In this document: positions 1 through 44,739 of the stretch, in pieces
Layout of the letters: each line of letters opens with the position of its first letter
Numbering within the stretch: the stretch's first letter is position 1
From: Azolla caroliniana
Lineage: Eukaryota; Plantae; Polypodiophyta
Length of the DNA: 64,000 bases
Direction: 5' to 3'
NCBI GenBank assembly: GCA_043228905.1
Contig: JBHGNT010000007.1
Location: 7,812,001-7,876,000 of the forward strand
The notes under the pieces: model-generated
Database searches by the model: none
Seen by the model: only the letters and a program-made list of their open reading frames with translations
What the model was told of the DNA's origin: nothing
Translations under genes and position numbers: made by a program

Positions 1-764
1 AAGAAACATAAATTTATGTGTGTGGTCGTGACGATATAATGTATGTGTGCGACATTTCAAACACTAGATAGTGCACCGTGTTCATTCAATATATGGAAGA
101 AAACTATATTCTATGCGATGAGAGGAGAGGGGAATCTTACTTAAGTGAAACAAACAAAAACCTATGGTCCTTCCTAGTTATGAGAAGGAAATCTTAATGC
201 AAGTAAATAGCAATTTAATATAAAAAACATAAGTTAAAGAGTAATGAGATACTGTTGACACTTTCTCTCACTATAATCCATGTGCTTTTCATAACTCGTG
301 ACAATGTGATGTTGTAAAGAACAACTTGAGGCTGAGTCTAGTATGGGTTTTGGAGTTACCATTCACATTTGATCTAAGTATGTTGCATCTCACCCACAAG
401 AAGTTTATGATGTTGAAGAGTAGGCACAGAGAGGATCCTAGTAATCTGCTATATTCCAACACACCAAGTTACCTATGTCACACCTAAGTTACAAGTCCTA
501 TGGAAGGTGTTAATTCTACAAGCAAACCAAGGGGTAAAGATCCCTTGTGGGGGAGGATATAGTAATCCACTATATTTCATCACAGTAAGTTACTTCTGTC
601 GCACCTTACAAGTCCTATGGGTTATAAAGTGTTAATTGTACATGCAAACCAATGGGAAAAGATGATTCCCTTCCTTGCCCACAAGTGTCAAAGGTGTTAA
701 TTCTACATGCAAACCAAGTGGATGTGAGCCCTTCACACACACACACACACACATGACAAAGTAC

Positions 765-7200: not shown

Positions 7201-7736
7201 TGTCTGCAATTTACACTATCATTTCCATGCAATAACTAATTGAGCATGCAATTAGGGCATTGAGAAGAGAGTTGTTGGTTCTAGCAACATCTTTTGTAAT
7301 GTTTAGTTAATTGATTTGCAACTTAGTTTATCTAAGAACTTAACCTAAATTGTTAAAAGCACTAAGTGGAAAGAAAAAACAAAAAGAGAATAATTGTACA
7401 TTTATTAATTAAGTGACCATTCTTAGTATTGCTGAAAACCATAAGTCTTAGGGTAAAACACTGGACATTAATCTTGTCTGTGTGAGAGAGAAATAAATAT
7501 AGTTTATTATTGTCTTCAGAGGTCAAATATGATCTATGAGACCAAAAATATAAAATGAAAACATAATGCATGTGAAAGTGAGTACGGACTCTCAACGTTC
7601 AAGAACCTTACCAATGAGTGTCACAATTAAGAATGTAGACAAGACTTCATGAGAGAGATTCATACAACGATTGGGTTTAATCGAAAATGTATCTCGCTCG
7701 ATCGACGACAATCAATCTTTCGATATCGTCGAAAAT

Positions 7737-16920: not shown

Positions 16921-19900
16921 GCTAAACTTTATGGATGATTGTGTCATTTGGCCGAATTATATGGACAATCGCATGCAACCAAAAGCCAAGGCCATGCAAT
17001 TAAAAGTAAAAGGCATGCATCTAAAAATGGAAGCATGCAACTAAAAGCAGAGGCGATGCAACTAAAAATAGAGGCCATCCAACTAAAAGTGGGCATGCAA
17101 AGTAACATTAGGGAGGAGGATCAACGAGGAGCTTGATATATGTCCCATTTTTTCCCTCCTAGTTTTTTTTTTCCCTTCTTTCTTCTTCCCTCTCGGATTC
17201 GAGAAACAAATTATCTCACATATTGATATCAAACTCCTAGCTTTGTTTACTCAATTTTTCTGGTCAAAAAATTATCTCTCGTATTCATATCGGACCACTC
17301 TTTGCATGGTTGTTGGCTCCTTTCTTTGAAAAATTAATCTCTCATTTCCATACCCAACCCATTGTAACACGATTCTGAAATTATAAAGAATCAATTTTCT
17401 TTTGCAATAAACTAATGATTTGTTTCTCCCACTTGTCTTATGCTTAAAACTTGCTTGTGTTGTACGTGTTGCACTAAATCCTTCTAGTCCAGAACCCCGG
17501 CGGTTCCGTCTCACGATCCGCACATAGTGACGGATTTTCACGACATAATTAAGTGGTGAACCCGATGTGAAAGAGGTGGTAGGGAGGATATCAAGTGCAA
17601 CGATGACTTCCACAAGCGGAACTCAAAGAGAGGAATTAACGAAAGGCATGGTGTCCGTAGTGGAATACATGTTGAAGGTGAGATATCGAGATCTCCACAC
17701 ATATATACTATCAAAAACAAGACCAAATATAAGATGTGGCATTTATCAAGATACTGCTAACTTAGCCTTGTCACTAACACCTTTACTAGGTAGAAGACCA
17801 CATCTAAAAACGAAAACAATGTCCACCCTGGCTGGTAGTTTGAAAACTTCTTGTTCGCCTTCTACGAGTATCCAACTTTTCGATGGTTCAATCCCACAAA
17901 GACCAACAACTTTAAAGGAGAGGAGGGCGACCATGTCATCAAATGAACCACATAATACATGATATTCCCTGTCCTCGAACATCACCAATTTCCTAACAAA
18001 GTTGCTCCTACATCATCGCTTTAGTGCATGAAGGAGACAGATGGGACTACGACAAGCTGTAGAGAACAAAACAACCGCATCAAAGGAAACAAGGGAAGGA
18101 AACAAGTCACAAAGCAAAAAGGTTTAAAGGCCATATAGCCCAAAAGGACCAAAGGCCATCAACAAGCTGAAATAGTGGAAAGTTGATCGCAGGACCAACT
18201 GGCTAAAAAACTGAAGAGCTAAAGGCCAAAGAACCAAGGAGTCGAAGGAGGAAGAGCTAATAGGCCGAAATGCTGACTTGACCCGACTCGATAACTAGTT
18301 TATATCTTGTAAAATTCCTTAATTATATTGTAATTTAAGTTTACCGGGGAGATCACCCCCTAATTTGTTGTAACGATATGAGTAGTCCTTTTATGGGGGT
18401 GTTTGTTCGACTAGAAGTCCTACTTGACCCATTTCTCTCTTTAGTGTGAATACTCCTCTCTTGAGTGTGAATACTCCTCTCTTTATTGTGAACTAAGTCT
18501 TATAATGGCTCAGGGGGTGTTTTGAATGTAACAGTCGTTTTCTCTCTCTGGCTATTGTGTAACTATGTGTCTCTCTCATTATATCCTTGTCTTGTGATTA
18601 AATAGTACACCATCTTTCTTACTTGCTTAATGTTTGCTAGTTCCTACTAACAAGATTCATATACATATTCCACACGAATGGACCAACGCACCATATAGTG
18701 TCATCACATGTACCTATCATTCTTTCTATTCAATCTCTAGTTCCTTTCTAACATTAGTGAACATACCCTTAACTTATTTTTTGTAAATATTTGTCACCTA
18801 CCCTCACCTACATTATATATGCATAACAATGATTTTTTCTTCTAATGTGCAAAAGAATATGTGTGGAAGCTTAACAGACACAACTGGGTAACAATAGACA
18901 AAAGACAACAAAGGTTTAATGGAAAGCTTAATCAACACAGCATACACAGGAGAGACAGAAAGAGCAGAACACAAATAACTCTATTCCAAAACAATACTCT
19001 AAAACTCTGTACATAGGATGTGCTCAGAGAGCACTTTTATACAAGTCCATACGGACTGACAGAAGTACTAACATGTTGTCATGAGGATTGTCGGCCATGG
19101 TGAGAAAACACGAGTGGGAGGAATAAAACAAGATGTGCAACATTGCACATGAACTTAAGAAAATTGTAACATAGGAATAATAGACAAATGTAAGGAGGAA
19201 AAGTAAGATGTAAAGGTATAAAGGTGATGTGCACTTTGTAGAGTAGAGGGAGGCACATGAAGTATGGGTGTAGGGAGTAGTGGGCATTGAGTATGTTGGT
19301 GAGAGGAGAGGGAGTTAAGACCCCTCAATCTCACCTCCTAAGATTGAGGTCAAATACTCACCTTTGAAAGAAAGGGGATTTGACCACTCCTTTTTGTAAT
19401 GTGTCTCACCCCTTATTACTATAAAAGGGAGTGAGGGGTCACTTTTGAGGGGCTTCCACTTTTTTTGGGTTTCTTTGGGTTGCCATTAGGGTTTCGTAAT
19501 TTTGGGTTTTAGGATCTCGTTTTAGGGGTTTCATTCATCTTCTTCTTCTTCATCATCATCATCTTCTTCATCTTCTTCTTATTCTTCTTCTCCCCTATCC
19601 GGTTAGGGTTTCATCTAGAGGGTTTACATTCGGCCTACGCTACCATGGTTGTAATCCATGTGGTGTTTTCATAATATAATCATTCGATGAATCTTGTCTT
19701 GTCTTGTCTCTAATCTTAATCTCTCGAATCTTGATCTTTCTCTTCCTTCTCGGTTGAACTCCCAAGCTTCTCTCCCTTCTCTTAATCCCTAGTCCAAGAC
19801 CCCCATGGTCCCGCCCCTTTTCGACACGCACACACGGATTTCCGTGACATTTGGTGAACCCGACGTGAAAGGGCGGCAAGGGAGGATGAGGATGGAAGCT

Positions 19901-22700: not shown

Positions 22701-25150
22701 CCCGACCGGGGACCGAACCGCGCGATGCTCCGATACGGGTGGAGCGTAATCCGGTCGTGGATCATTCGATCGGGGCCGGATTCGGCATGAAAGTGCCGAT
22801 ACGGAAGAGGGTGTGGGACGAGCCGCCCTCTTTTACATGGGGAGAAAGACCGACCGGGCGAAGGTCGGGAATTGGAAGGGAAGTGGTCAAAGGTTCGGAA
22901 CGAGTCTGGCAAGGTCGGCATCGGAGCTGAAACTCCGGACATTGGAGAATCAAGCTCAGGCGGGGCTTGATTGATCACAGAGCGGATGCTATCCACCGAC
23001 ACCACTAAAAGGGGCGGTGGTCCGGACGAGTCGCCGAAAGAGGTTGCAAAAATCGGTTACCCCACGTCCTATCCGGAGACTTCGGCAGTTCGGCCGACGT
23101 GGCAACGTGAGACTGAAAGAGATGGAGGATGGAGGCGAGAACGCGAAGAGGAGAACGAAGACTGGTCCCCACACCAGTCCGGAGGCCCCGGCAGTTCGGC
23201 CAACGTGGCAACGTGAGACCTAGGGAGAAGGCTGGTGGCGACAAGAGAACGGGACCCGACAATCCGGAGAAGGACGAACGGACCCGGACGAGAACCGGGC
23301 GGAGCGGACTCTCGGACGACCATTCCGGGAGGGAGGAAGAGAGCAGGCCTACGAAGAGACCGAGGAGACGGTACGTCGGTACCACGGGAGAGGGTGCGGA
23401 GTAAACCGCCCTCTCAACATGCGGAAAAGAAGAAAGACCCGGGATAGGGGTCAGAGATATGGCAAGCCCGAGGAGGATCCTTCACACCGGTTCTACAGAA
23501 ACCCGCGGTCCGCCCGAGAGCCGGCTGTCGGCCTAAAGTGACGAACGGTGGCGGCGAGGGGACGAAGGCAAAGGGCTACGGATGAGCGGTCTACAGAGAT
23601 CCTCACACCGATCCTGCGGTCGGCTCGAGAGCCAGCGTGAGTCCTATAGGAAAGGACAGTGGCAGCAGGTGAACGTGACCAACAGAAGAGAATGGCGAAG
23701 GCAGAGCGGAGCAGCTGTGACCTTACACACACCGATTCTAGAGACTCCGGCAGTCAACGACAAGAGGAGGCGTGAGACCTAAAGTAAGGGACAGTGGCGG
23801 CGGCAAGGCGAGCAACCGAAGCCATAAGGGGAGGTCCCACGAAGACACTCACACCGATCCGACAGTCGGCCCAAGTGCCGGCATGAGTCCTATAGGGGAG
23901 ATCGGTGGCGGCAGGAGAACGTGATCGGACGACAGGAGGCGACTAACGGCAAGGAAGTATGAGGCCGGCAAGGTGGCTACGGACCATCTCAAACCTTTCG
24001 GCGAGGTGAGTGGGCGTAAGGAAGTCCGGTCCTACGGGATCCCCACACCTAACCAGAGACTCTGGCAGTTCGGCCAACATGGCAACATGAGACCGAGAGA
24101 GGAGGTTGGTGGCGGTAGGAAACGGGACCCGACTACGCGGAAGACACGAGGAAAGTCCGGGAGGGACTGAAACAAAAGACACCTGGATCTCGACAAGTGA
24201 CAAAACAAAGACCGGTCCTATGGGACCCTCACACTGATCCGGAGATCCCGGTAGTTCGGCCAACGTGGCAACGTGAGACCTAGGGAGAAGGACGGTGGCG
24301 GCAGGGAACGGGACCAACCGACACGAGGTAGCGGATAGGGAGCCGGTAAGACGGGGCAGACGAAGTGCAAAACCCTCACCAACCGGTTACGGTTTCGAAA
24401 GGAGCCGGTAGGGGCAAACACGGGGAGGTGTGTCAAGCCGGAAAGGCACACCTGGGACGGAATAAGAGTCTCGCAAGTGGCCATCGCGGGCCGGATCAAA
24501 GCATGACTACGGGACAGTGTTCGGCACGGGCGGTGCCGAACAAAGGAAGTAGAAGACGGCACAAGGGAGGTGCCGGGAACGAGGTGACAAGTGCCTAGTG
24601 GACTGCACAGGGTCAGAGTCAGGGGATGGCAAGAGAGGCCGGAGGAGGATCCTCCACACTCACTTCGTAGATCTCGGTAGCTCCGTCGAAGTAGCAAAGA
24701 CTGACACGGCAAGCCGGGGTGACAAGCTGGTGGGGGCGAGGGGACGATGGCAAGCGGAAGACTCAGGACCTATTGCAGCAGCACGAAGACGGGAAGGGCC
24801 AAGCGGGCTACTACGGGGTGTTCCTCGGATGCGGAGGACACCAGTATGCGGGTGAGCGGCGATGCACGATCTGGCCGGGAAAGGGGCCGACAAGGCGTGC
24901 AATGAACCGGAGTACGGCACAGGCAGTGCCAAACAACGGACGAGGGTATGTGGCACACGGAGGTGCCGGAGCGGAAAGGCGAGCGCGGAGATAGGTTGCG
25001 CGGTTCGGAGGTAGCGCGTAGAAGGTCAGAAAAGGATCCTCCACACCGTTCCGGAGACCATGGCGGTTCGAGCCGACGCGGCGATGTAAGACCATGGAGA
25101 AGGAAGGTGGCGGCGAGAGGACGAAGGCAACGCGAAACAACATGGGACGG
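22420..25150 (+). repeat. Degenerate ~120-bp repeat family in the internal region of C
   Basis: Recurrent CCGGAGACTCCGGCAGTTCGGCC..CGTGGCAACGTGAGACC..GGAGAAGG.CGGTGGCG units, for example near 23073, 23199, 24053 and 24239. Confidence 0.75.
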
Positions 25151-26033
25151 CAATCAGGACAACACGAATGGTCAACGGAGGCCAAGCGGGCCACTACGGG
25201 CGTTCCTCAAGCGGAGGACATCGGGCATACGGCGGGGAGCGGGCGTTCATACGGCCGAACAAGGGCCAACGGAAGTACGCGTACTACGGAGATCGCGGTT
25301 GAGGACCCATCGACGGGTCGAACGAGCCTACGGGGAGGTAAGCGCGAAGGAAGAACCGAAGCCGACGGATCAAACCGGTAGCGAGCCGGGATGCGGATTA
25401 CGGAAGACCGGTTTCTCACCTCCTAAGATGGGCATTGAGTGGTGGGTGAGAGGAGAGGGAGTTAAGACCCATAAATCTCACCTCCTAAGATCGAGGTCAA
25501 ATACTCTCCTTTGAAAGAAAGGGGATTTGACCACTCCTTTTTGTAATGTGTCTCACCCCTTATTATTATAAAAGGGAGTGAGGGGTCACTTTTGAGGGGC
25601 TTCCACTTTTAGATTTTCTTTGGGGAGTGGCCATTTGTCATTAGAGGTAGACCGTTATGATTTTCTTCATCATCTTTGCCCCGATTTCATTTTACGGTTT
25701 TGGTTTTAGGTTCCCTTTCGTATCATTTCCCTTCTCTCAATTGGGGTTTAGTTCTTCTTCCTATTCCACTTGGGTTTTCTTCTATTTGTGCTTGAGTCCG
25801 GCTTATGGCCGTGGTTGTAATCATATCATGGCTTTCATGCCTTATAGTGTAATTTGCTTGTTTAACCTTGTCTTCATCTATTTCTCTATCGTGTTAATCT
25901 CTTCTTCTTTCTGCTCCCCTTCTGAGCTCGAAGGTCGTAAGGGATAAGCTCCCATTTCCCCTCTATTCCCTAGTCCAAGATCCCCGTGGTCCCGCCCAAG
26001 TCGACACGTACTCGCGGATTTCCGCGATAACGT

Positions 26034-29000
26034 TGTCGTGAGGATTCCGAGCCATAGGTAGAAACAAGGTGAAACGCACAGGAACACCGGTTTACACGAG
26101 TGCACGCCTCGAGAGAATTAGCTAGGGAAAGTACTAGGCATAAGTATATAGAGGGGTACTACGTAGTCAGGACATTAATGAAGAAATAGACATCGCATAT
26201 GTAGGGAGAGTTACGAGGGGAGAGGATCTAGGAAGGGAAAGTGAGGATTCATGAATGCTTGTAACGGTCGCTTCTTCTGCTAGAAAAGAGGAGGCCATTG
26301 AGAGGAGAGGAGAGGAGATACAGAAAAGAGGAGGAGGATTGATCATCGGAAGGCGCTTCCCCTGCACACGTCCGACGCCCGAGTGCTCCCAGCTAGGGGA
26401 TTGACCTTCAGCGTGCCAACGCACCTTCGTGTCTGGCTATTACCAAGCTCCACGCTCCATCACCGGCTTTGATCCAACTATAATCACCCACCGCACTGTG
26501 CACCTGTGTTGTTTACCAAGCTCCACGCTCCATCACTGGCTTTAATCCAGCTGTAATCACCCACCGCACTTTTAATAGAAACTCTCTTTGCCTAACAAAC
26601 GTTGTTCTCGGTGTCTTGCCCGTGTCCGCGTCTACGCACGACTCTTTTACCCTCTCTCGATCGCTAGCATTACCTATTTTCCCGCGGTCCCAAGACCTTC
26701 GCAATTCTCAACGGCTCCCTTTTCGTTTCCTCGATTCCTTGGTTCGAGACCCCCGTGGTCCTGCCCGACTTCCACGCATCCGCGAGGATTTCCTCGACAT
26801 CTTTGGTGAACCTGACGTGAAGAAAGGCGGTAGGGGAATCTGGAGATGAGAGGAAGCGAACTAGCAGAAGCAATGCCGGTGGCGGTAGACCACCTGGTTA
26901 GTGCTCGCGAGGGCGCGAGTGCCCTCGACCGAGCCATAGAAGCAATGGTCGGGAAGATAGGACGGTTCAGCGGAAAGGACGCCACGAGTTACTTAGAGGC
27001 CTACAAATCGGAAATGTAGATGAGAAACATACCCGAAGATAGACGGCTAGCAGGGTTTCCCCGAGTCGTAACACCACACATCCATACAGAGATGGTCGAG
27101 ATTCAAGCAGGCTGTTGCGATTGGGCGGAATTCGCGGAGGAAGTTCTCGAGAGATACAGCTATGACAACTCACTCCAGCTATCAAGAAAGGATTTTATGG
27201 ACTGGGTCAACAGCCCTGGCAAGGGTCAAAACACTTCGGTGCTCCTCCAGGAGTTCGAGTCATGGTTCACGCGACTCTCTAGATTGGACCGAACCGTGCT
27301 TGAAACAAGCAAAGTCCTATTTTTGTGACATCTTTCGATTCGCGCGTCCGGGAAAGCGTGGGTCTTCTTCTGGAAACCAACCAAGGTCCCACGACTGACT
27401 GGGCAACCGTCAAAGAAGTATGCAGCAGGATTGACAAACGCCGAGACTGGAGAGAAAAGGGATCCTCGTCAGTCGAACCGGCTGTCAAAATCAGGGCCGA
27501 ACCGACACCAAACCGAATGGAAGAAACGAGGAGGTGGCTCGAGGTAGGCCCAACCACGACGAAAATAGTCGTGGAACCTGCAGGCGGCGCAGGGCTACAA
27601 GAGCTAACAAGGATGGTACGCAACCTCTAGATCGCCCAAGCCCGCCGAAGCGATGAGGGTCAGCCGCGCGACCGGCGACCACCGGCCAATCAGAGGTGTG
27701 TTGGTGCGACGCCACCGGACATGCCCGAAGAGAATGTGCTGACTTCGGAGAAGCACTCAGGAGTAATGTAGTCTACCTTTCGAACGACCGGATACATGCG
27801 AGCGACACGCGAAGACTGCTCGACACGAATTTCGGATGAGGTGGCATGAAGATGCTAATGGAAGAGGCTGCGGCCCGGCACATCGAAACCATCCACTATT
27901 CGGCTTCGGCCGGCATCCAAGTAGGGGAAAAGGCGAGCAAACCCGATTCAAACCCTGGATTCTGGCAGCTATTCTCAAGACCTTGACTGGAGGAAGGTTG
28001 CAGAAGGGAGAAGCGGAGCGCGCGGAAGAACGTGTGCGCGAAGTTACCTAGTGGAGCGACCCCGTTGAAGAAAGCACCGGCTTTATGGTAGCCGCTTGCA
28101 GGAACTACGAGGCCCTGATCGACGAAAGAGGAGCAGGGAAAACCATGGGATCGGGCCCTTCAGGGAGGTATGACACCCGAAGCACGCCCAAAAAGAACGA
28201 TGCCGCTACGACCGGGTCCTAGGAGAAGGAGAAGGGTAAGATTCCGAGCTTCTACGTAAGCTCAGAAATCGAGAAAACAACGAACCTACAAAAGGTCCTA
28301 GAGGAGCGAGTTCTCGACAGTCGCATAGAACTCACGTTTAGGGAAGTGCTCGGTATAGCAAGAAGGGAGTTCCACGATAGCATTGTGGACCTCGTGAAGA
28401 GGAAGCGTCTCACGACGGAACCAAAGCCGGAGAAGTCGGACGAGGTGAGGGCGGCACTCCTCAACGAGATTGCCACCGAAGATGAGCTCGCGAAAAGCCA
28501 CTATGCCAAGCCACACTGGGCAACAGCTACTACAAAGACCCCGGTTCGAATCGGGAATGTCAAGGAACCGGTGGTGGCAATAATCGACCACGGGTCAGAA
28601 ATTAACCTAATGTCCATGGACTTCTACAAAAAGGGAAATTGGCCGATCAACACCAAACACGGGTAGAAGATAGGCGCAGCAACAAGAGCCACGGAAGAGT
28701 TGCATGGGGCCTGCCCAAACGTCAGGGTGAGCATCGGAGACGTCAACATAAACCAGCACTTTTTTGTGCAAGAAACGTCCTCCCACCCGGTCATCCTCGA
28801 AGAACCATACATCACGGCGGCTAGAATGGAGACGAAAGTGTTGGACAATGGTTCAGCCTATGCAAGGGTAAAAAGTCAAGACGGCCGTCACTCCGTCCAA
28901 TTTTGGACCGTTCGGAAGAACCACGAATGAAACCGGGACACCCTCAGGAATGATGATAAGCCGGATTTTTAGATAGGGCTATCAAGGTGTGGGGCCACGA

Positions 29001-31250
29001 TAGTCCAGACAACCGGGAAACTCCCCACACCTGTAAAATAGGTTGGAAAATTTTGTTCTCCAACAACGGGGGGTGTACCATAGCCAGCATCAGTGGCAGA
29101 GAAAGAAAACAGGCTAAGATACGCTTGAAGGCGTGCGGAGCCTTAAGCCATGACGAAGGAATTGGGGAAGCCGTGGAGGCGGTCTCGTTCGATGACACCT
29201 TGGGGGAAATCGGGAAGGTAGTCGGAGGAGGTCTAAGCGAAGACCGAGTCATACCGGTCAACTCGATCGACATGTATGAAGTCATTGCGAACTTCGAAAG
29301 AGGAACCAGAGCGCATCGGATCGCCCGAGTAGACACATAATACAAGTTTGTGGACCAGAAGGTGAAGCCCGTCGCGGCCCCCTTACCAGAGGGCAGTTGG
29401 GAACGAATAAAGGGGGTCGCTACCGACCCGAGCCTACGAAATTCGGCCGGCATAGGACACCACTTCACCGACAAAACGCTACGAGAGCTGAAGATTGGTG
29501 GGGGTGGCTTCCTACTGTTGGCGGAAGAGGACCGGTTCCAAGGAATGCTCGAGAGGCACGGGAAGGCCTTCGCATTCTCATAAGGAGAGATCAGGTGCGT
29601 CGACCTGACCATCGTCGAGCCAATGGTGATCTTTATAGTACCACACGTACCATGGAGTCTCAAGCCGATCCCAGTACCGAGAGCTCACATGCTGATGTTA
29701 ATGGAGCTTCTTAAGCAGAAAGTGGAGTTGGGCATCCTCGAACCATCGAGTGCCCCATATTGTAATCGGTGGTTTACGGCACCAAAGAAGAACGGCACGC
29801 TGCGGTTCATCCAGGACTTACAACTAGTCAACAAAGTGACCATCTGCAATACGGGAGTCGGGCCATCGATCGACGAGTTCGCTGAAGCCTTCGTCGGAAG
29901 GTCCATATACTCCGTCGAAGACCTTTACTCGGGGTACGACCAATTCCAGCTCGCCGTGGAGAGCAGGGACATCACAACGATGCAGACCCCTCTCGGCCTA
30001 GTTCAAATGTGTACCCTACCACAGGGCGGAACCAACCAAGTGGAGGGACAAGCACTAACGAACAAGACCACCACGGCCGCATTCAAGTTTCTGATCAAGG
30101 ATGTCATATGCTGATATGGGTGCATGGGGAAAATCGTGGCTGACCGAGAAGAGCTAAACGCGGAAGAGGCCTCAACAACTAGCATAGGTCTACGCGCAAG
30201 TTCACGAAGCGATGGTTCAGGCCGTACGTGGTAAATAGCATCAACAATAATGCCACGTATCATCTCGCGGAGCTCGATAGGACGCGAATAACAACTCCGG
30301 TGGCCGGGAAGCAGATAAAAGCCTTCAAGGGACGGAACGAGGAGGAACGGGACCCGGGAACCGGAAGCGCCAACTCAGGAGAGGAGGACGAGTAACCGAT
30401 GGCCCGGAATCCACCACTAAATTCACTATCCGGCACATACCGGAGGATGTGCGGTTTGGTGGGGGTGGATGTCATGAAGATTCCGAGCCATAGGGAGAAA
30501 CAAGGTGAAACGCGCAAGAACACCGGTTTACGCGAGTGCACGCCTCGAGAGAATTAGCTAGGGAAAGTACTAGGCATGAGTATATAGAGGGGTACTAGGT
30601 AGTCAGGACATTAATGAAGAAATAGACATCGCATATGTAGAGAGAGTTACGAGGGTAGAGGATCTAGGAAGGGAAAGCGAGGAGTTATGAATGCTTGTAA
30701 CGGTCGCTCCTTCTGCTAGAAAAGAGGAGGCCATTGAAAGGAGAGGAGAGGAGATACAGAAAAGAGGAGGAGGATTGATCATCGGAAGGCGCTTCCCCTG
30801 CACACGTCCGACGCCCGAGTGCTCCCAGCTAGGGGATCGACCTTCAACGTGCCAACGCACCTTCGTGTCTGGCTATTACCAAGCTCCACGCTCCATCACC
30901 GGCTCTGATCCGACTATAATCACCCACCGCACTGTGCACCTGTGTTGTTTACCAAGCTCCACGTTCCATCATTGGCTCTGATCCGGCTGTAATCACCCAC
31001 CGCACTATGCACTTGTGTTGTTTAATAGAAACCCTCTTTGCCTAACAAATGTTGTTCTTAGTGTCTTGCCCGTGTCCGCGTCTACACACGACTCTTTTAC
31101 CCTCTCTCGATCGCTAGCATTACCTGTTTTCCCGCGGTCCCAAGACCTACGCAATTCTCAAATGGTTCCCTTCTCGTTTCCTCGATTCCTTGGTTCGAGA
31201 CCCCCGTGGTCCTGCCCGACTTCCACGCATCCGCGAGGATTTCCTCGACA
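26034..31250 (+). mobile_element. Gypsy element B: LTRs 26034-26799 and 30470-31250, Trp PBS, gag-PR-partial RT-partial INT with internal deletions; TSD ACGT/ATGT
   Basis: Protease IIDHGSEINLMS; RT PYCNRWFTAPKKNGTLRFIQDL, DLYSGYDQ, PQGGTN; integrase pieces KIVADREEL and YHLAELD; PPT GGTGGGGGTGGA. Confidence 0.93.
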
Positions 31251-34200
31251 ATGTACTTCAATGCTCATCAATGAGCCCCTACACTAACTCCCAAAATTTA
31301 TTCCTCCGCGGAATATCTATCCAACGGCCTCCCAGTTTACACACCGCTACGGCCTCTCGTTGCGCACCCGGTTTACACCCAGTTTACGCACCTAATGTTG
31401 AGCTTGTATCTCAACACTCCCCCTCAAGTTCAACTCGAGGTTCCCCTGCTTTTCCAGATGTTCGCTCCGGCTTCTTCTAGCTTCACGCCTGGCTTGTGCT
31501 CCTCAACCCATTCGATTCCGTGCCCCTCGACCCTTTCAATCGGCTAGTCTACTCGTGCAACCTTTCTCAGCTCCCTTGTTTTCATGGTGTTGGCACCTCT
31601 TCCACTCTCCTTTCCTCCGCTTGGCCTTTAGTTGATTCGGTGTCTCCAAATCGAACATTCGAGCCGAATCGGCTGTCTCAATTCGTTTCCGCTCTTGCCC
31701 GAATTAGTTGTCTCCAATTCGTCTTCTGTCTTCAGGCCCTTGACCACATTTGACCACGTCTTGATCTTGACCTTCTTGACTTCATCTCCCCCTCCTTCGG
31801 GTGACTCCGTCTCCTCCTTTCAGTTGATGCCCCTGTTTCTGCCTTCGGCTTCTTCAGCCGACTCGAAATCGAATTCTTCATCCGACTTGGCTTCACGTCA
31901 CTTCCACTCCTTTCTTGCTCCCTTTCCTGGTATTTTCTCCCCCTCAAGTTCGGCACGTGGAGGTGCAGCAAACCAAGCACACCCGAGAATTGCCGCAACT
32001 TGTCGAGACCAAGGAGCTTGGTGAAGATGTCAATAGTCTGCCGATCCGTAGGAACATACGCTTGTTCGACTTCACTGGAGAGGACCCGTTCGCGGATGAA
32101 ATGGTAGTACACCTCAATGTCCTTGGTCCAGGCATGGAAGACGGGGTTCTTCGCAAGTTGGATGTTGCTGAGGTTGTCCCAGTAGATCGTCATCAGAGCG
32201 GACACCTCCACTTGCAGATCCTTGACTAACTTCTTGAGCCAAATGGCTTCGCATGTCGCGACAACTGCTCCTCGATACTCTTCTGTGCTTGACAGTGCAA
32301 CTGTCGGCTACTTCTTGTTCCTCTAGGAAATCGCAGCGTTCCCAAGCGAGAAAGCAAACCCAAATGTGGATCTATGATCGCTAACGTTTCCAGCCCAATC
32401 GGAATTCGAGTAACTGATGAGTTGTTTGGCAATACCGGTCCGATATAGCAGCGCCCTATCGTTAGTGTCGTGGACATAGCGCAATATCCTTTGTGCGCAC
32501 TGAAGGTGTTCGGTCGTGGGTTGCGACATAAATTGACTGACTAGGCCGACCTGGTAACTGAGATCCGTCTGAGTGATCGTCAAATAAATTAGGCTTTCGA
32601 CAATCTATCAGAACCATGTTGGGTCGCACGCCTCTCCCGAATCTCGGTGAAGCTTGACGTTTCCGTCCAGAGGAGTTGAGATGGACTTATAGTCTGTCAT
32701 CGCGAATTTGAAGAGCATACTCAGCATGTAATGACATTGGTTGATTAGTATGCCTTCGGCGGTGCAGATCACTTCGATCCCTAGGAAGTAATGAAGGTCC
32801 CCTAAGTCTTTCATTTCGAATGATGCCGCGAGCTGGGACTTTACGTGGCTGATTTCATCTAGGTCGGCACCGGCGATGACTAAATCATCAACATAGAGTA
32901 AAATACTAACCGGTCCATGTCGACCTTCCCAAACGAAGAATGAATAATCTAATTTGGACGTCGCAAACCCAATCCGATGTAGGCGCTGCGTGATCTTCAC
33001 ATTCCATGCGCGTCAGGCTTGCTTTAGTCCGTAGAGGGACTTCTTCCATCGGCATACCGCCGAGGTGTTCTTTCCGGACTGAAATCTAGGGGGTTGTACC
33101 ATGTACACCTGTTCCTCAAGTTCTCCTTGCAAGAACGCATTCTTTACATCCATCTGATGTAAATGCCACCCCTTTACCTCGCCTACTGCAAGCAGGACAC
33201 AAACAGTTGTCATCTTTGCGACCGGCGCAAAGGTTTCATCGTAGTCAATGTTGTGTTGTTGTGCATATCCCTTCGCCACTAATCGGGCCTTGTAGCGGTT
33301 GATAGAGCCATTGGTTTTCTACTTGACCTTATACACCCACCTGCATCCAATCGGCTTTACACCCTTCAGGGCATCAACCAAGTCCCAGGTTTCATTTGTC
33401 GCTAATGCGTGCATCTCTTCCTCCATGTGGCACGCCAATTTGCGTCCTTCGCCGCTTCTACGTAGCTCTCCGGCTCACGCACTTCCGCCACTCGTGTCAT
33501 GTACACATAATGATGTGCTATGTTCTCGTTGTATTCGAACTGCACCACAGGATTCTTCTGGCAGGTAGATCAACATAATTGCTCATTAGTCAGTTTTGAG
33601 GCCCTGTTGGCTGATGCAGACTTCGTTTACGAAGGTCCATCTTCATTCTTCCCGAAGTCGTATTCGCTTTGATCCGATTCATCTTTATCAATGGCGTACT
33701 CCGACATCTTCTTCTTTCCCTTCTCTTCGCGCGTAAGCCGTCTCCTTGACTTCCAGAGTGGGGATTGCACGGCCAAGTCTCCACTAATCGTCGGCTCTGC
33801 GTCTGACTGGTCATATCGACTCAGTCGCTCATTCGGCCCACTTAGCTTGAATGAGATCGGACTCTCTTCAAGAGCTCCAATGTCTCCTTAGACCCGAGGC
33901 ATTTCAGCCTTGGTGATCTCTTCATCAAATATTAGAATGGAGTCATCAGGGGTTGGAGGCAAAGGCACGTACCACGACGTGGACTAGTCAAACACAAGAT
34001 CACGACCTACACGAGCTTGTTTGGTTCAGGGATTATAACACTTATAATCCTTCTATTCGTTTGAGTAGCCAACCAAGATACACTTCTCGGCTTTGGCGTC
34101 CAGCTTCCTCCGTTTCTCCTTCAACACGTGCACATACACGATGCTACCGAAAACCCTCAAGTGTGCCAAGTTCGGCTTCTTCTTGAAATACAACTCATGT

Positions 34201-36749
34201 GGTGACACTCCTCCATTGGAAGATGCCCAATTCTAGAGGTAGACGGCTGTTATGATCGCTTCGGCCCAGTAGAACTTCAGCAGATGCTTCTCTTCAAGCA
34301 TTGCCCTTGCCGCCTCCTCTATCGTCCGATTCTTCCTCTTCGCCACGCCGTTCTGCTGCAATGTGTATCTAAATGAGAATTCGCGTTGAATTCCTTCCTT
34401 CTGTAGATAACTCGGGAACTAGTCGGAGAAGTACTCCTTCTCGCCATCGGACCTTAGGCACTTGATCTTTTGCCCGGTTTCCCTTTCCGCAAGGCTCTTC
34501 ACCTTCAGGAAACACGCGAAAACTTCACTTTTTTTCGCAATCAAGTATGCCCAAGTGTGCCGAGTGAAGTCATTGATGAAGGTTAGGAAGTAACGGCTTC
34601 CCCCGATGCTCACGTTCTGTGTTGGTCCCCATACATTCGAATGGATCATATCGAGCGGATTTTGACTCCGATTACACTTGTTGGGGAATGGAAGTCGGTG
34701 TTGCTTCCTGAGCTGGCAAGTTTCGTAGACTTGGCCATTCCAGCCACTAAATTTCGGCAATCCGAAAACAATGTTCTTCGTTTGCATTTCACGAAGCTGT
34801 GGGAAGTTAACTTGGCCGAACCGCTTGTGCCATAGGTCGATGTCTAACTCGACCTTCTGTCCTTTCACAAACAACGCAATTCCGACTTCATTGGTGTTGA
34901 GGATGAACATCCTCCCTTCTCGGTGCCCTTGCGCAATGACTTTTCCCTCTTCTTCGATGTAGCAACCGAGATGCATGAATCGAACTTGCATCCCCTGGTC
35001 AACGATCTGTTTGACCAACACCAGGTTCTACGTTATTGTTAGGACGTGTAGCACGTTCATTAATTTCCCATTCTGGCTTACGTGGCTAAGGGGAACTTCT
35101 CCGACATGTTCAATGGTATGTAGAGTGTCATCTCTCCAGTTTCGACCACTCCTTGTTTTTCCAGTTTCTCCAAGTATGAGAACCATTCTTGGTGACTCGT
35201 CATATGATTTGATGCTCCGGAGTCAACATACCATACCACGTTCGGTTTCTAAGTGTTCACCTCCATCGAATTGGCCTTATGCTTCATTACGAAGGTTGGG
35301 CCCGATCCATTTCCAGCTCGTTCGGAGCCTTGGGCATAGTGTGATCGCTGCTGATTTCCTTGTTCGGTCTACCTGGAGCCGGATGCAATTTTCTCCGAAT
35401 TGGCGCGTTCCTTCCAGCGCTCGCTCTCCTTGTGGCCTTTCTTGGCACAGTACCAGCATTCCACGACAGGCTTTCCTTGCCGGTTTCGGGTGCCACCTTG
35501 ATTCCCTCAGCTTTTAGAGGGTCTAGAACTATTGTTGGCATTATGACCATGCCTTCCATCTTGCTCTTGTTGGCTGCCTCCATTGCGCGCCGACTCTCCT
35601 CGTCCGCCATGACCACGGAGGCTATCTTCCTCCGTGTACAACATCTTGTTGTCGGTGTGCGTACTCGTTGACACACCCGCGTGGTTCTCCTCTGCTAGGA
35701 GCATCGACTGTAAGTTGAAAAACGACAATGTATTCTCCCTCGTACATGCCGATGTTCGGAAAACTCTGAACTTCAATGCTAACCCTCTGAGGCAGACCTG
35801 CACCATTTCTTCCTCGTTGACATTTACATCAACGGAGGCGAGAGAGTCACAAATGTCCTTCATCTTGGAGGTTTAATCAACCACCCTCATATCTCATTGT
35901 TAAACATTCCTCAACTCTTGCCTAAGTTGGAGCTTTCTCGTTGTGGTGCTCATGACAAAATCTTTTTCAGATTTCCCCAAGCATCCTTCGGCGTCCTCGC
36001 ATCCTGTATGTAGCATAGAAGTTGATTGCTCACACGAGATGCGAATCAGTAGAGAACTCTGTTTGTCGCTTGTTCCCAGGTCGGGAAATATCTGTGTGTC
36101 AATTCGGGTGTTGCGTCATTAGCTCCATCGACATAACTCCAACAGACATGACCGACCAGATATATAGGTGTATCTTGTACGACCAAGATGCGTGGTTGCT
36201 TCTGTCAAGCTTCTTCGTCGAAAGCGAGCTAGCCATTCCTCCTTCCATTCTTTGCTTCTTCTATTCTTCACCGTGATTAAGGTTTGTCTGTTTGTCGGCA
36301 ACAGAGGTTCTCAACCTTCGCGCTCTGATACCATGCAAAAGAATACGTGTGGAAGCTTAACAGACAACCGGATAACAACAAACAAAAGACAAAGAAGGTT
36401 TAATGGAAAGCTTAATCAACACAGTGTACGTAGGAGAAGTAGAGAGAGCAGAACACAGAAAAACTCTATTCCAAGACAATACTCTAAAACTCTGTACATA
36501 GGATCTGCTCAGAGAGCACTTTTATACAAGTCCATACGGACTGACTGAAGTACTAACACGTACTTCAATGCTCATCAATGAGCCTCTACACTAAATCCCA
36601 AAATATATTCCTTCACGGAATATCTATCCAATAGCCTCCCGGATTACGGACCGCTACGGCCTCTTGTTGCGCTCCCGGTTTATGCACCCAGTCTATGCAC
36701 TGGTTTACGCACCGGTTTACGCACCTAATGTTGAGCTTGTATCTCAACA

Positions 36750-37209
36750 AAATATAATCAGCTCCTTGTCCTTCTCCAATGTTACAGTATTTCTGAAGAG
36801 CTTTAATGCTCATGTAGATGTTGTACCTGTAAAGAAATGGGCAAGAAGACTTAGTTATCCAACCATAAGAATCGGTATTGATTATATCAGTAACCTGAAC
36901 CTAGTTCGAAGGATACCTATGCTAGAAAATAGGTCTAATATCCAATCTGCTTCGTTCGAGAACATTTCGATCAAGCACATCATAAGTCGTTGAGGTTTTC
37001 GGTATTGGTTGACAAATCCACATTCTATCGTGGTGACATGTCGCAATTTGCATGTGACTGCTAGATATACCAGCAGTTTTGAACCTCCAACTTCATTAGA
37101 GTGATCCTTGATTCTTTGTTTCTCTATTTCTTCGAAATAACCAACCGTAATGTACTCAATTTCATTTACGAACCGAAAGGTCGGTCCTCTATTCACGTTG
37201 GTTTTTATC
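36750..37209 (-). pseudogene. Intron-containing relic of a beta-class N4-C/N6-A DNA methyltransferase (C-terminal half)
   Basis: Exon 37209-36917 reads IKTNVNRGPTFRFVNEIEYITVGY...VNQYRKPQRLMMCLIEMFSNEADWILDLFSSIG. A GT-AG intron spans 36916-36827. Exon 36826-36750 reads TTST*ALKLFRNTVTLEKDKELII. Confidence 0.8.
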
Positions 37210-37299
37210 CTATAATGAATAGTAGGTGAGTTAAGAATAGATTCGACAAATTAAGAACGAAAGTATGGTGAATGAGACCTATAAATAATCCAGTATAAA

Positions 37300-38860
37300 T
37301 TGTAAATGTTCTCAGTATATGTAAGAATAGGGTATTGATGAGGCTGGATGGTTCCCACTACCATGATTTTTGTTTTATCCACATTTATAGTTAATCCAAT
37401 ACATAGAGAGAGATATATATATAGATTTCATTATCTTCTTCAGAGGTCAAATATGACCTTTGAGACCAAAAATATTACATTTCATATAATGCATGTGAAA
37501 GTGAGTAGTGACTCTCAATGTTAAAGAACTTTGTCAATGAATGTTGCAATCGAGAGTGCACAATGTGGTTGTGAAAGACAATGACTAGCATCCGGCTCCG
37601 GGCAGACCGAACAAGGAAATTGGCTTCATCCAACAAGGGTCGTCCTCTCCCTTTCTTGAATCAATGGGCAGATCCACATATGATGGAATTATCGCATCCC
37701 TATAGGGATTTGTATGTAACACTCTCATCTGTAAAATTTTACAACTAATAGAAGGAATTTTGTTTGGAAAGAAGAAGAAGGGTGCTTGGCCGAAAAGCAT
37801 TTGTCTGTGCTTGAGACACAAACATTCTTAAAAGCTTCCCATTTACATTCTAGTGTGATACCATGTGGTATCTTTGTCATTTGTAGCATATCCTCAACCA
37901 TCTCAATGGAATACATGGATGCTCATGTAAGGTTCAATCTCAAGTCTAATTGTTTATTACCTTCAACGGATTTTTCATAATTAGACTTATGCATACATTT
38001 GAGGTCAATATTCCGGCGTCCATTCACCAAGTTAGAATTTATCTATACAATCCAATATAACTTGGAAATAGTATGTATTCAATCACACTATTTCCATTGT
38101 GTTTTCTACATGTAAACCTATTAGTGTTGGGCCATACGGATACACCATTTGCAATAACCATTCTGGCACTATTGCACATTTGTAGGAGTAACTTCTCAAA
38201 TTGGTCTAGACTATACATTCGTATATCCTCTTGTATCCATGACATATGTGGCATGAAAGATAGTTGTGCATCAAGTTGGAAACTTCTTGTATGGTATTCA
38301 TATAACCAAAGACAATAACTTCCCCTTTGGATTTGAAATAAGCAATATCACCTTTGAGATTCACAAAAGGTTAATCTTTATCCAAAGAAGCATAAAAGTT
38401 AGAATTTTGATGTCGAATGTAACAACCAACTACAAAAGTCGGCAAATATTTAGGTGCTTCTATTTTGAGCCATATGTAGCATTTATGTTCATCACTTTTT
38501 ATAATCGACACATATTCTTCTATTTCCTTCTTGATCAAATATGTCACCCCTCATTGTCCTCTTCTTTGTCTTGCATTTTTTGCCCATACCAAAGAGTGTA
38601 CATTATAGTGTTCTAAACCTCAAATCCTTTGAGTATCATGCTCCCATGTTTCAGCAAAAAGTGTGATGTCCAAGTCATTAGTGAACTCCTTTATGTCAAA
38701 TCCCTCATTCCATGGGCATCCATTGCTTTTCCAAAAGCATAGCTGTAGAAGTCTTGTATTAGTCTGATAGGTTACGTGTCTTGATTTGCCTTCATTTCCA
38801 TCTTTAGGCATATCCTTAACCTTGCTTTTCAATTTTCTTCATATGCTTTATGACGGGCAT
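37300..38860 (-). mobile_element. Degenerate LINE (RTE/L2-like) fragments: APE endonuclease and part of RT
   Basis: CFWKSNG..DITLFAETWE; RFTCRKHNGNSVIEYI (SVIDY-like); GLTINVDKTKIMV at ~37340-37397. Confidence 0.7.
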
Positions 38861-42791: not shown

Positions 42792-44739
42792 AGTATAGGT
42801 CTGCTATTTTTACGTGGGGTGCAGTCTTTTGGGGAATGTTGGATCAATAAAGGGCTTTTTATCATTATAATCATTCTTCATTGTCTTTATATGTAAGAAG
42901 TTTTCAAGTATATTCTACTTCAAGATCCTTGCAGGGAGTCAAGTTCTTCTCGCGGAGTTATGTTTGGCAGATTGTCTCCTCGTTGTCTCTATGGGTTCTT
43001 TGGAAAGCTAGGTGCTCCAAGTTATACAATGATGAAGACATTCACGTTGTGGATCAGGTAAAGTCTTTTTGGAATTTATTAGTACATTCGGTTAAAGGTG
43101 AGTATGACAGGTATAAAGGCTATGGAAACACAGCCATTTGAAAAAGAAAGAGATTACGACAAGTTTGGTCAGCTATTCCTATAATGTTAGATGCAGGCAC
43201 GGAGGTTAGTTGGTTGTTCCCGCCACCAGTACCATTCTTATGGCGTACAACATGAGATAACAGGGAGCAGACGGTGGCGGCATGTAGGAAGCTTATTTTA
43301 ATGTAGGTAAGATATACATATGCTAGAAGAAGATATGAGGAAATAGGATGATGTTCTGGATGCTGAATCAGACTAGTATAAGAAGATTTTAGTGGTATGA
43401 GGCAGATTTCGTGTGATAATCAGAGACATCGACATGGTGGATGTGGACAGGTTGAAATAGGTTTAAGTTGTTTTGTGATTAGGATGACTAATGTTGGTGG
43501 GGGTTGTCGAAGATTACTAGGAGAAGGGCCGCGTTAATCGGTGAGACAGAATAGGGGAAGCAAGATACCCTAGATATGGGCTGACTTAAGACAGATATTA
43601 TGGTTCTCATAGGTTGCGGGATGATGGCAGTGGGATTTGAAGCAACTTTGTCATGGTGTGAGGATGAGTGGTGTTGGTGCGAGGGCTGAAGCAGATCAGG
43701 AGGGGAGAGGAATCATTGTTCACTTATTTTGTTGTTAATTGCACAGGATATTCGCGGTACTCGGCGAGATGGTGGATGTGGATTGATTGAAGCAATTTGT
43801 TTGTTTTTAGGAGTGATGATGGTGGGGGGGACAGAAGCAAATCATGAGGGGATGAGGAACCATTATTCACTTGTTTTTGTTGTTATTTGTATAGGTCAGA
43901 GGTGGTATTCAGCGAGATGGTGGATGTGGTTTGATTGAAGCAATTTCTCTGTTTTTAGGAGTGACGATGGTGCGGGGTAACGAAGCAAATCATGAGGGGA
44001 TGAGGAACAATTTCTCATTTTTGTTGATTCATTGCACAGGTCATTGGTGGTATTCAGCGAGATGGTGGATGTGGACTAAAGGAAGCAATGTGTCTGTTTT
44101 AGGAGTGATGATGGTGGGGGGGATTGAAGCAACTCATGAGGGGATGAGGAATTTTTTTACTTATTTTGTTGTTAATTCCACAGGACATTGGTGGCATTCG
44201 GCGAGATGGTGGAGGTGGATTGAATGAAGCAATTTGGTTGTTTTTAGGAGTGATGATGGTGAGGGGGCCGAAGCACATCATGAAGGGAGAGTGAATAAGT
44301 TGTGGGGATCGAAGCAAATGGGGTGAGAGGTGGAGATTAGTATAGTACATTTCATTTTCATGGTCCGTTTTTTTCTCCCCAACAATTTTTACAAATGTTG
44401 GAATCAGTTCAGATCTGTTTGCAACTGTTTCCGTTGGGATGGTGAATCTTCTTACAGCTCCACACCTGACACATATGATTGGAAAGACGGAGGACATGGA
44501 ATATCATGTGAAATATAAGTTTTCTATGGAGTTCTGTTCTAAGAGCCCGAAATTTTGTTTTCTGTAGCAGATCACTGGAATCAATGTTGTGTTTTATGGC
44601 TGTTTTTTTTCCCAACAGTTTTTACAAATGCTAGAATCAATTCAAATATACTGGTGGAGATGAAACAATATTATGTACTATTTGTATACTGCCTCTGGGC
44701 TTTTTATTAATACCAATGGAGCATATGTTTTATGGTAAA
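42792..44739 (+). mobile_element. 5'-truncated L1-like LINE with a long 3' tail; 12-bp TSD AAAATTATTGTA
   Basis: ORF2 C-terminus WQIVSSLSLWVLWKARC...WLFPPP; TSD at 42780-42791 and 44740-44751; short A-run at the 3' end. Confidence 0.75.
43660..44300 (+). repeat. ~146-bp tandem repeat, about 4.5 copies
   Basis: GAAGCA.ATCA.GAGGGG anchors at 43688, 43834, 43982, 44126 and 44270. Confidence 0.9.

What the first reader, a model, noticed from the sequence alone, without database searches (positions are those of the whole stretch)
36750..37209. Spliced bacterial-type N4-C/N6-A DNA methyltransferase relic buried in the TE stack
Seen: removing a canonical 90-nt intron (36916-36827; GTATCC...TTTCTTTACAG) joins two minus-strand exons into ...YRKPQRLMMCLIEMFSNEADWILDLFSSIG|TTST*ALKLFRNTVTLEKDKELI. 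Upstream in the same exon is IKTN..RFVNEIEYITVGY, preceded by another AG acceptor at 37210. Known: this follows the C-terminal half of beta-class amino-methyltransferases (N6_N4_Mtase; WxK...E.il, then KPxxLxxxLIxxxSxxGDxVLDxFxGxGTTxxxAxxxxRxxxGxE). These are mostly prokaryotic restriction-modification enzymes, with rare eukaryotic recruits such as Marchantia DN4MT1 and rotifer N4CMT. Inference: a horizontally acquired, intronised 4mC/6mA writer existed in this lineage, either as a host gene or as cargo of an unrecognised mobile element. This copy is dead: TGA at 36810-36812, eroded FxGxG, 3' end cut by the copia LTR, and the catalytic exon replaced by LINE DNA. The ORF track misses the second exon.
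Basis: partly seen in the sequence, partly recalled or inferred. Interest (0 to 1): 0.85.

Follow-up and report, generated by a model that had tools for sequence, protein, structure and literature searches.

The report
Dead scrap of transposon-borne DNA methyltransferase
This is a broken 540-base scrap of a spliced, bacterial-type DNA methyltransferase gene whose intact relatives are the second gene of a many-copy cut-and-paste transposon of a plant (likely a fern), a design already reported from algae, in which the enzyme is predicted to mark the transposon's own DNA.

Summary
In detail: two exons, a 90-nt GT-AG intron, the in-frame TGA, eroded FxGxG and the LTR cut are all as described. Forty-five related loci give an intact six-exon, 975-aa gene (ParB-like region plus beta-class amino-methyltransferase, motif DIPY, not SPPY). 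It lies head-to-head with a DUF7869/Sola-like transposase inside a ~8.6-kb element with 35-bp inverted ends and a phased palindrome array in intron 1. Intact subfamilies are under strong purifying selection (median dN/dS 0.016). One probable-RNA contig splices the homologous intron. The window keeps only 37291-36750, decaying neutrally, with no transposase, end or catalytic exon. Relatives occur in Chara, Riccia, Diphasiastrum, Adiantum and Ginkgo. The design is in print: Ectocarpus Sola1-1_Ec32 carries an opposite-strand ParB-N4C/N6A methyltransferase, and red-algal Plavaka elements pair ParB-like genes with inverted-repeat arrays. This scan has also reported the family from other DNA of this genome (8 notes seen) and from another genome. 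Self-marking with 6mA is likely but untested. New member of a known kind; modest interest for this scrap.

The parts
37210..37291 (-). 3' remnant (about 82 nt) of intron 4 of the family gene, ending in the AG acceptor; the break lies a few bases after the donor of the missing catalytic (DIPY) exon
   Evidence: DNA alignment with L021, L010, L008, L022, L013; blastn ends at 37290-37291
36917..37209 (-). Exon 5 of the family gene: WxKxN strand region, target-recognition region, KPQRL segment and the start of the SAM-binding motif I (FSGTG eroded to FSSIG)
   Evidence: homologous to L004:6968-7260
36827..36916 (-). 90-nt GT-AG intron 5, splitting motif I at FxGxG|GTT; itself similar in sequence to the intron of relatives
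   Evidence: 25 of 26; the homologous 93-nt intron of L004 is skipped with GT..AG ends in one contig of probable-RNA run X12
36750..36826 (-). 5' part of exon 6 (helix and strand after motif I, EKD acidic motif); nonsense codon at 36812-36810; truncated at the LTR
36334..36749 (-). 5' LTR of a copia element abutting the relic (context, not part of the transposon); the primer-binding site follows
   Evidence: integrase and RVT_2 hits downstream
31253..31416 (-). First half of the copia 3' LTR (context)
18848..19074 (-). Second half of the copia 3' LTR, displaced about 12 kb by nested insertions; no methyltransferase sequence follows it (context)
37292..38838 (-). Degraded LINE-like DNA abutting the 5' break of the relic (context)
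   Evidence: Exo_endo_phos E 0.0069, below cut-off, at 38302-38838; the RT-tail-like motif near 37390-37340 is recalled and has no Pfam hit

Best explanation
The feature is a dead 542-bp internal fragment of the passenger gene of a many-copy Sola-like cut-and-paste transposon, whose intact copies encode a predicted ParB-like/beta-class DNA amino-methyltransferase fusion that likely binds a palindrome array in its own first intron and likely writes 6-methyladenine on the element. Shown: the fragment's identity; the element anatomy (35-bp inverted ends, about 8.6 kb, DUF7869 transposase head-to-head with a six-exon 975-aa gene, phased palindromes in intron 1); purifying selection on intact subfamilies; neutral decay of this copy; splicing of the homologous intron in one contig. 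Inferred: that the N-terminal region is a ParB domain (weak hits only); that it binds the palindromes as a dimer; that the enzyme is active; that the base is A rather than C; that the mark protects the shared promoter region from host 5mC silencing. My odds: transposon-cargo fragment about 0.93; active self-targeting methyltransferase about 0.55; 6mA specifically about 0.4.
For: 45 loci from 149 candidate stretches. A shared right end followed by different flanks in 15 loci downstream of the gene, and its exact inverse at the left end of L042. A 916-aa DUF7869 ORF (E 2e-53) on the opposite strand in L004 and L042, with D387, D465 and D507 invariant in 37 aligned sequences and weak fold matches to TnsB, Mos1, IstA and integrases (best E 4e-4). 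Six exons, five GT-AG introns, one terminal stop in L004. DIPYG in 21 of 45 loci, three variants, none found in the rest. The fold of the Ginkgo relative matches CcrM Z 24.3 (rmsd 2.3, 216 aligned), M.BceJIV 22.8, M.MboIIA 22.2, rotifer N4CMT 19.9, M.PvuII 19.5. Median dN/dS 0.016 over the 22 of 36 pairs with measurable dS; the window's private changes are 16 nonsynonymous to 3 synonymous against a site ratio of 3.4:1. 68 palindromes in 14 of 45 loci against 0.47 per shuffle, spacings mostly 31-33, 40-41 and 50-52 nt. 1,981 and 5,416 contigs of two DNA runs lie on L004, with depth falling to about zero in the bins beyond the right end. Same design and same proposal in print for Ectocarpus and, with a different fusion, Bostrychia.
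Against: Transposase and methyltransferase are seen on one contig in only 2 of 45 loci, which are 95-98% identical to each other; no complete copy with both flanks, so no target-site duplication. The window's nearest subfamily (L010, L021; 83%) was not seen with a transposase or an end. ParB identity rests on PHROG E 0.064, an Atlas hit at 0.91 to a cluster only 35% ParB_N and KorB Z 5.0, all weak; Pfam gave no family for the N-terminal exon of L042 and only an unrelated weak hit for L020. DIPY departs from DPPY, and the N6A-versus-N4C Z gap is small. The only spliced contig is single, depth 3.6, from a run only guessed to be RNA, and comes from a damaged copy (2-nt insertion, 38-nt deletion). 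Retrotransposon-borne DAMs gave no 6mA in E. coli (bioRxiv 10.64898/2026.05.21.726589, section 9). The nine copies used for dN/dS were picked by me as frame-intact subfamily representatives. The palindrome pattern was derived from the same loci in which it was counted.
Confidence: 0.75

Rival explanations
1. Same transposon cargo, but the intact enzyme writes N4-methylcytosine (for example in the TCGA/CG-rich palindromes), blocking or mimicking host 5mC.
For: Beta-class N4C enzymes share the fold (N4CMT Z 19.9, PvuII Z 19.5). The array is CG-rich (CpG o/e 1.46, 17 TCGA in 461 nt of L004). That some N4C enzymes have a D-type motif is recalled, not tested.
Against: No S-type motif in any locus or among P0061-P0222, whereas DN4MT1 has TSPPY. 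The top four structural matches and the leading sequence matches are N6A enzymes or annotated so.
Confidence: 0.15
2. The intact protein is a DNA-binding accessory factor (anti-silencing or transpososome helper, like VANC) whose methyltransferase fold binds or flips bases but transfers little or no methyl.
For: Non-canonical DIPY. DIRS methylase domains are judged inactive (PMC4738411, passage) and retrotransposon DAMs were inactive in E. coli. VANC shows that sequence-specific accessory proteins with tandem targets exist (PMC5735166, abstract).
Against: Motif IV D-x-P-Y, motif I FxGxG and the acidic motif after it are all kept from Chara to Ginkgo; dN/dS about 0.02-0.04 over the catalytic and SAM-binding exons; the bacterial-type relative P0219 also has DLPY.
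Confidence: 0.25
3. The window fragment is the relic of a domesticated host methyltransferase gene, comparable to Marchantia DN4MT1.
For: It has spliceosomal introns, and no transposase, inverted end or palindrome lies in the window.
Against: 79-83% DNA identity, introns included, to a multi-copy family that ends in a shared inverted repeat with unrelated flanks; neutral decay; it lies between LINE-like DNA and an LTR.
Confidence: 0.04
4. The spliced peptide is a chance reading or a bacterial contaminant.
For: The window exon alone is below the Pfam cut-off.
Against: 93.4 bits against a shuffle maximum of 3.1; conserved GT-AG introns; named relatives are plant proteins.
Confidence: 0.01

Closest known systems
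Sola1-1_Ec32 of Ectocarpus (PMC12477816; passages and part of the reference list read, figures and supplements not seen)
   Same: Sola-type DNA transposon with a gene on the strand opposite the transposase encoding a ParB-like domain plus an N4C/N6A methyltransferase (1104 aa there, 975 aa here); the authors propose that it binds and modifies its own element.
   Different: Brown alga, 21.5 kb; here a land plant, about 8.6 kb, many subfamilies. No palindrome array or intron structure in the passages read. Sequence homology between the two proteins was not tested (sequence not held).
Plavaka accessory genes PAG2/PAG3 of red algae (bioRxiv 10.1101/2025.02.11.637652; passages read, supplements closed)
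   Same: DNA transposons carrying a PF01555 methylase gene and a ParB-like gene next to tandem arrays of inverted repeats, with the same self-binding proposal.
   Different: EnSpm/Plavaka transposase; there the methylase is fused to SET and ParB to a 2OG oxygenase, on separate genes; here the ParB-like region and methylase are one protein.
Sola superfamily DDD transposons (PMC10741241 passage; PMC12973397 passages and four Table S2 rows)
   Same: 2-9 kb typical size, short inverted ends, acidic triad of Asp residues; one of the four plant Sola clusters listed has ends beginning AACAC as here, with a 4-bp duplication.
   Different: Target-site duplication and direct transposase homology to Repbase Sola were not testable. 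That table lists no methyltransferase domain, and its sequences were cut from view. The end sequences and representative sequences of the Cibotium and Rhytidiadelphus rows look swapped, so the species for the AACAC end is unsure.
Beta-class amino-methyltransferases CcrM, M.BceJIV, M.MboIIA, M.RsrI, M1.HpyAVI, M.PvuII
   Same: Motif order IV before I and the fold (Z 19.5-24.3 for the Ginkgo relative).
   Different: About 20% identity; D-[ILVAF]-P-Y motif; long N-terminal ParB-like region; spliceosomal introns; no partner nuclease.
Marchantia DN4MT1a/b and rotifer N4CMT (bioRxiv 10.1101/2021.02.12.428880 and PMC8885841; passages read)
   Same: Eukaryotic beta-class amino-methyltransferases of bacterial origin.
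   Different: Domesticated host genes making 4mC (DN4MT1 has TSPPY and no extra domains; N4CMT has a chromodomain); this family has DIPY, a ParB-like region and rides a transposon.
DAM-carrying DIRS/LTR retrotransposons (bioRxiv 10.64898/2026.05.21.726589; abstract, passages, section 9) and VANDAL/VANC (PMC5735166; abstract and outline)
   Same: Mobile elements carrying their own epigenetic writer or anti-silencing factor; VANC targets form tandem arrays.
   Different: The DAMs are a different methylase class (NPP motif) in retroelements; VANC removes 5mC and is not a methylase.

Membership tests
Beta-class N6A/N4C DNA methyltransferases (PF01555) | Significant match to the family profile | tested here: met
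   Close relatives 27.8-41.7 bits against cut-off 26.7 (4 of 5); Ginkgo relative 65.7 bits. The window exon alone scores 19.1 bits, below cut-off.
Beta-class N6A/N4C DNA methyltransferases (PF01555) | Catalytic motif IV before SAM-binding motif I | tested here: met
   In the intact L004 gene DIPYG at 692 precedes FSGTG at 854. In the window copy motif IV is absent and motif I eroded.
Beta-class N6A/N4C DNA methyltransferases (PF01555) | Permuted Rossmann fold of CcrM/RsrI type | tested here: met
   Model of the Ginkgo relative P0066, not of the window's own family: Foldseek E 1e-13, VIA Z 24.3, rmsd 2.3, 216 aligned.
Beta-class N6A/N4C DNA methyltransferases (PF01555) | SAM-dependent methyl transfer to A-N6 or C-N4 of DNA | not testable with these tools
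   Needs an assay or modification-aware long reads.
DN4MT1/N4CMT-type host 4mC writers | SPPY catalytic motif | tested here: not met
   DIPY in 21 of 45 loci, no S-type motif in the loci or among P0061-P0222; DN4MT1 has TSPPY.
DN4MT1/N4CMT-type host 4mC writers | Low-copy host gene outside mobile elements | tested here: not met
   Shared inverted end with different flanks in 15 loci.
Sola DNA transposons | DDD RNase H-like transposase | tested here: inconclusive
   Invariant D387, D465, D507 and weak fold matches to DDE transposases; no Sola reference profile was available, and the link of DUF7869 to Sola is recalled or taken from earlier scan notes.
Sola DNA transposons | Terminal inverted repeats | tested here: met
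   35-bp exact inversion between the left end of L042 and the right ends. Absent from the window copy.
Sola DNA transposons | 4-bp target-site duplication | not testable with these tools
   No locus holds both flanks of one copy; no genome is held.
Sola1-1_Ec32-type elements with a ParB-methyltransferase accessory gene | Accessory gene on the strand opposite the transposase | tested here: met
   L004 and L042; 2 of 45 loci are long enough on that side.
Sola1-1_Ec32-type elements with a ParB-methyltransferase accessory gene | ParB-like N-terminal domain | tested here: inconclusive
   GGxH-S..AR motif kept from Chara to Ginkgo; PHROG ParB-like E 0.064; Atlas 0.91 to a 35% ParB_N cluster; KorB Z 5.0; that part of the Ginkgo model is low-confidence.
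Sola1-1_Ec32-type elements with a ParB-methyltransferase accessory gene | Common descent with the Ectocarpus protein | not tested
   The Ectocarpus sequence was not held; none of the 20 distant hits looked up was named as a brown alga.
RNA methyltransferases (Trm11/Trm14, METTL3) | Best profile and fold matches are RNA methylases | tested here: not met
   aTrm11 Z 5.3, Trm14 Z 5.7, METTL3 Z 13.7 against 24.3 for CcrM; UPF0020-family chain E 0.009 against 4e-16.

The most novel reading that the evidence does not exclude
A transposon-borne ParB-methyltransferase lineage has persisted in streptophytes from Chara to ferns and Ginkgo as a sequence-specific 6mA writer: the ParB-like domain loads at helically phased palindromes in the gene's own first intron and the enzyme marks the shared transposase/methylase promoter region, giving land-plant DNA transposons a self-addressed, non-5mC anti-silencing mark and a natural programmable writer-plus-target module.
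Probability: 0.35. Interest if true: 0.75.

Novelty: new member of a known kind. Interest (0 to 1): 0.42.

Why it matters
This copy does nothing, but it points to a young, abundant and strongly conserved family in which a printed, untested idea (algal transposons that bind and modify their own DNA) could be tested in a land plant: the protein, its candidate binding site and many near-identical copies are all defined. If the intact enzyme is active it would be a source of 6mA or 4mC on transposons in seed-free plants and gymnosperms, would bear on the disputed question of where non-5mC marks in plant DNA come from, and would add a methyl-writing counterpart to VANC. It also warns annotators that many 'N4/N6 methylase' gene models in Chara, Riccia, Adiantum and Ginkgo are probably transposon passengers (inferred; their flanks were not seen).

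Tried and rejected
No whole genome is held, so copies could not be counted or empty sites compared. The rest of the gene was sought across the whole window by tblastn and blastn, including beyond the split 3' LTR: nothing found; no inverted end or palindrome in the window. The 20-nt end motif gave 0 matches in viral contigs and 1 in prokaryote genomes (about one is expected by chance in 596 Gb, and L046 was not examined further). A distant-profile scan of viral contigs could not run for lack of a conserved stretch. Run search: no RNA holder listed for the window stretch, best DNA share 0.45; X14 laid no contig and X13 showed no spliced joint; these blanks are not used as evidence. A 257-nt skip in the transposase region in X12 has no splice ends and was set aside. 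In one search only 15 of 105 joints were shown, so absence of the spliced joint from DNA runs X1 and X7 is not established; all six joints were shown and DNA run X5 lacks it and has a contig running through the intron. No ParB structure surfaced from the PDB sequence-profile search; not used as evidence against. Flank letters at 15 right ends show no fixed target. No complex prediction was run: the open interaction is protein-DNA. Paper searches found no description of this family in land plants; the library lacks most subscription papers, and Iyer 2011, Bao 2009 and the Cell version of Walker 2025 were not seen. bioRxiv supplements (Petroll, Fernandez-Moreno, Walker) were closed and the Ectocarpus supplements were not opened; they may list plant members.

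Full report
Observation. The first exon alone matches Pfam N6_N4_Mtase weakly (E 0.0014, below cut-off) and the second not at all. Together they score 93.4 bits on a profile of 21 more distant relatives, against 77.2 unspliced and at most 3.1 for 200 shuffles. The feature is real.

Relatives. A search with the first exon gave 5 proteins among 130 candidates, 69-81% identical, all from unnamed assemblies. Using one of them, 45 loci were fetched from 149 candidate stretches. The window matches them over 37291-36750 and nowhere else in the element, best to L010 and L021 (83%), introns included, so the scrap came from DNA, not from an mRNA. The intron sits at the same place with GT..AG ends in 25 of 26 sequences where both flanks could be found. 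One contig of run X12, which the tool only guesses to be RNA, skips the homologous 93-nt intron of L004 with GT..AG ends; DNA run X5 runs through it. That contig is single, shallow and from a damaged copy, so it shows splicing, not a working mRNA.

The intact element. In L004 six exons joined at five GT-AG introns give 975 codons and one terminal stop, with GGSH at 348, DIPYG at 692 and FSGTG at 854; the short first exon is conserved in the three loci that reach it. On the other strand, head-to-head, L004 and L042 carry a 916-aa DUF7869 ORF with three invariant aspartates in 37 aligned sequences and weak fold similarity to TnsB, Mos1, IstA and integrases. Fifteen loci end downstream of the methylase gene in the same terminal sequence followed by unrelated flanks (a sixteenth, L028, has it upstream), and L042 has its exact 35-bp inverse on the left; the span is about 8.64 kb. 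Two DNA runs lay 1,981 and 5,416 contigs on L004 and depth collapses in the bins beyond the right end (depth is not a copy number). Intron 1 holds an array of 23-bp palindromes with a 3-nt centre: 68 hits in 14 of 45 loci against 0.47 per shuffle, spaced mostly 31-33, 40-41 and 50-52 nt, close to whole helical turns. I had seen the repeats as self-matches; reading them as a ParB target came from earlier scan notes, and I tested only their presence, place and spacing.

Alive and dead. Among nine frame-intact subfamily representatives that I chose, dN/dS over the two exons present in the window has median 0.016 (22 of 36 pairs; 14 saturated), and 0.036 over the catalytic exon; the window's private changes are 16 nonsynonymous to 3 synonymous, as neutral decay predicts. 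The scrap has LINE-like DNA on one side (weak hit) and the copia LTR on the other. That element's 3' LTR is split by about 12 kb of nested insertions, its LTRs differ by 9.3%, the flanking 5-mers do not match, and the gene does not resume, so deletions followed the insertions.

What kind of enzyme. The profile's best solved relatives are M1.HpyAVI, M.MboIIA, the 8urk enzyme (M.BceJIV), CcrM and M.RsrI, then rotifer N4CMT. A model of the Ginkgo relative (confident over the methylase domain, poor over much of the N-terminus) matches CcrM at Z 24.3 and tRNA methylases at Z 5-6. The motif is DIPY in this family and D-[ILVAF]-P-Y in most relatives, never SPPY. That favours N6-adenine but does not decide it. 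The N-terminal region is probably ParB-like, on weak evidence.

Range and host. A full HMMER search gave 207 proteins at E up to 0.001. Of 20 looked up, named ones are from Chara (3), Riccia (3), Adiantum (4), Diphasiastrum (1) and Ginkgo (1); the other 8 have no species name. Six further Ginkgo gene models match. Their flanks were not seen, so transposon linkage outside this genome group is inferred. The transposase falls in a 100/100 clade whose only named member is from Ceratopteris, which suggests a fern host; transposons can move between species, so this is not proof.

Mechanism. Most likely the intact protein dimerises on the phased palindromes through its ParB-like region and methylates adenines nearby, in the stretch that holds both promoters, helping the element stay active against host 5mC silencing. 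Anatomy and selection are shown; binding, activity, base and effect are inferred. The main rivals are a 4mC writer (0.15) and a binding-only accessory factor (0.25).

What is known. The design is in print. [quoted passage not shown] Sola features come from PMC10741241 (passage) and PMC12973397 (passages and four table rows). Also seen as passages: Walker preprint, PMC8885841, PMC4738411, PMC12344493, PMC5751038, bioRxiv 10.1101/2021.09.26.461848 (56), bioRxiv 10.64898/2026.05.21.726589 (64, 65, 88); PMC5735166 abstract and outline only. Ten searches showed no land-plant description, within the library's limits. This scan has already noted the family in eight other places shown from this genome and in another genome; those notes are unreviewed and are not support.

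Verdict. Observation confirmed; interpretation supported, with cargo rather than host gene. New land-plant member of a known but untested kind, represented here by a dead scrap. Interest 0.42; 0.75 if self-directed 6mA writing is shown (probability about 0.35).

Noticed in passing
window 18848-36749: The copia element next to the relic has its 3' LTR split into 31416-31253 and 19074-18848 by about 12 kb of nested LTR elements (repeat pairs at 19295/25442 and 26034/30470); its LTRs differ by 9.3% and the flanking 5-mers do not match.
   Followed up: partly
window 36749-36729: The copia LTR begins with a small inverted repeat (TGTTGAG..CTCAACA), present in both LTR copies.
   Followed up: no
window 43660-44311 and ORF 44503-44102: Tandem array of about 144-148-nt units with an overlapping 134-aa open frame that has no Pfam match.
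   Followed up: partly
window 618-1421 (-) and 63461-64000 (-): Host genes at the window ends: an amino-acid transporter (Aa_trans E 5e-33) and a Gly-rich region followed by the start of an RRM (E 5.5e-4).
   Followed up: partly
window 37406-37522 and 7486-7599; L003:6343-6461: A small unclassified repeat of about 120 nt present twice in the window and in L003 upstream of a PPR gene.
   Followed up: no
L042:513-3260 (-), residues about 750-870: The transposase has a confident C-terminal beta-rich domain after a disordered linker, reminiscent of BAH/Tudor-type readers (recalled); not folded or searched alone.
   Followed up: no
L042:4350-6023 (+), first 200 residues: The methyltransferase gene has a further conserved region before the ParB-like part, also present at the N-terminus of the Ginkgo protein; unidentified.
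   Followed up: no
L008:4615-4740: A copy with an internal deletion removing most of the ParB-like exon, inserted about 2.5 kb from a host short-chain dehydrogenase gene.
   Followed up: no
L028:192-215 and 550-820: A right-end motif lies upstream of a palindrome array and a truncated methylase gene, suggesting nested or rearranged copies.
   Followed up: no
P0079, P0076: Public gene models fuse this methylase exon to a cytochrome P450 (Diphasiastrum) or join two tandem ParB-methylase copies (Chara, 1825 aa), probably annotation chimeras.
   Followed up: no
PMC12973397 Table S2 rows 3204-3205: The listed end sequences and representative sequences of the Rhytidiadelphus and Cibotium Sola clusters appear swapped; these 10-11-kb plant Sola elements are large enough to carry the same passenger gene, which was not checked.
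   Followed up: no
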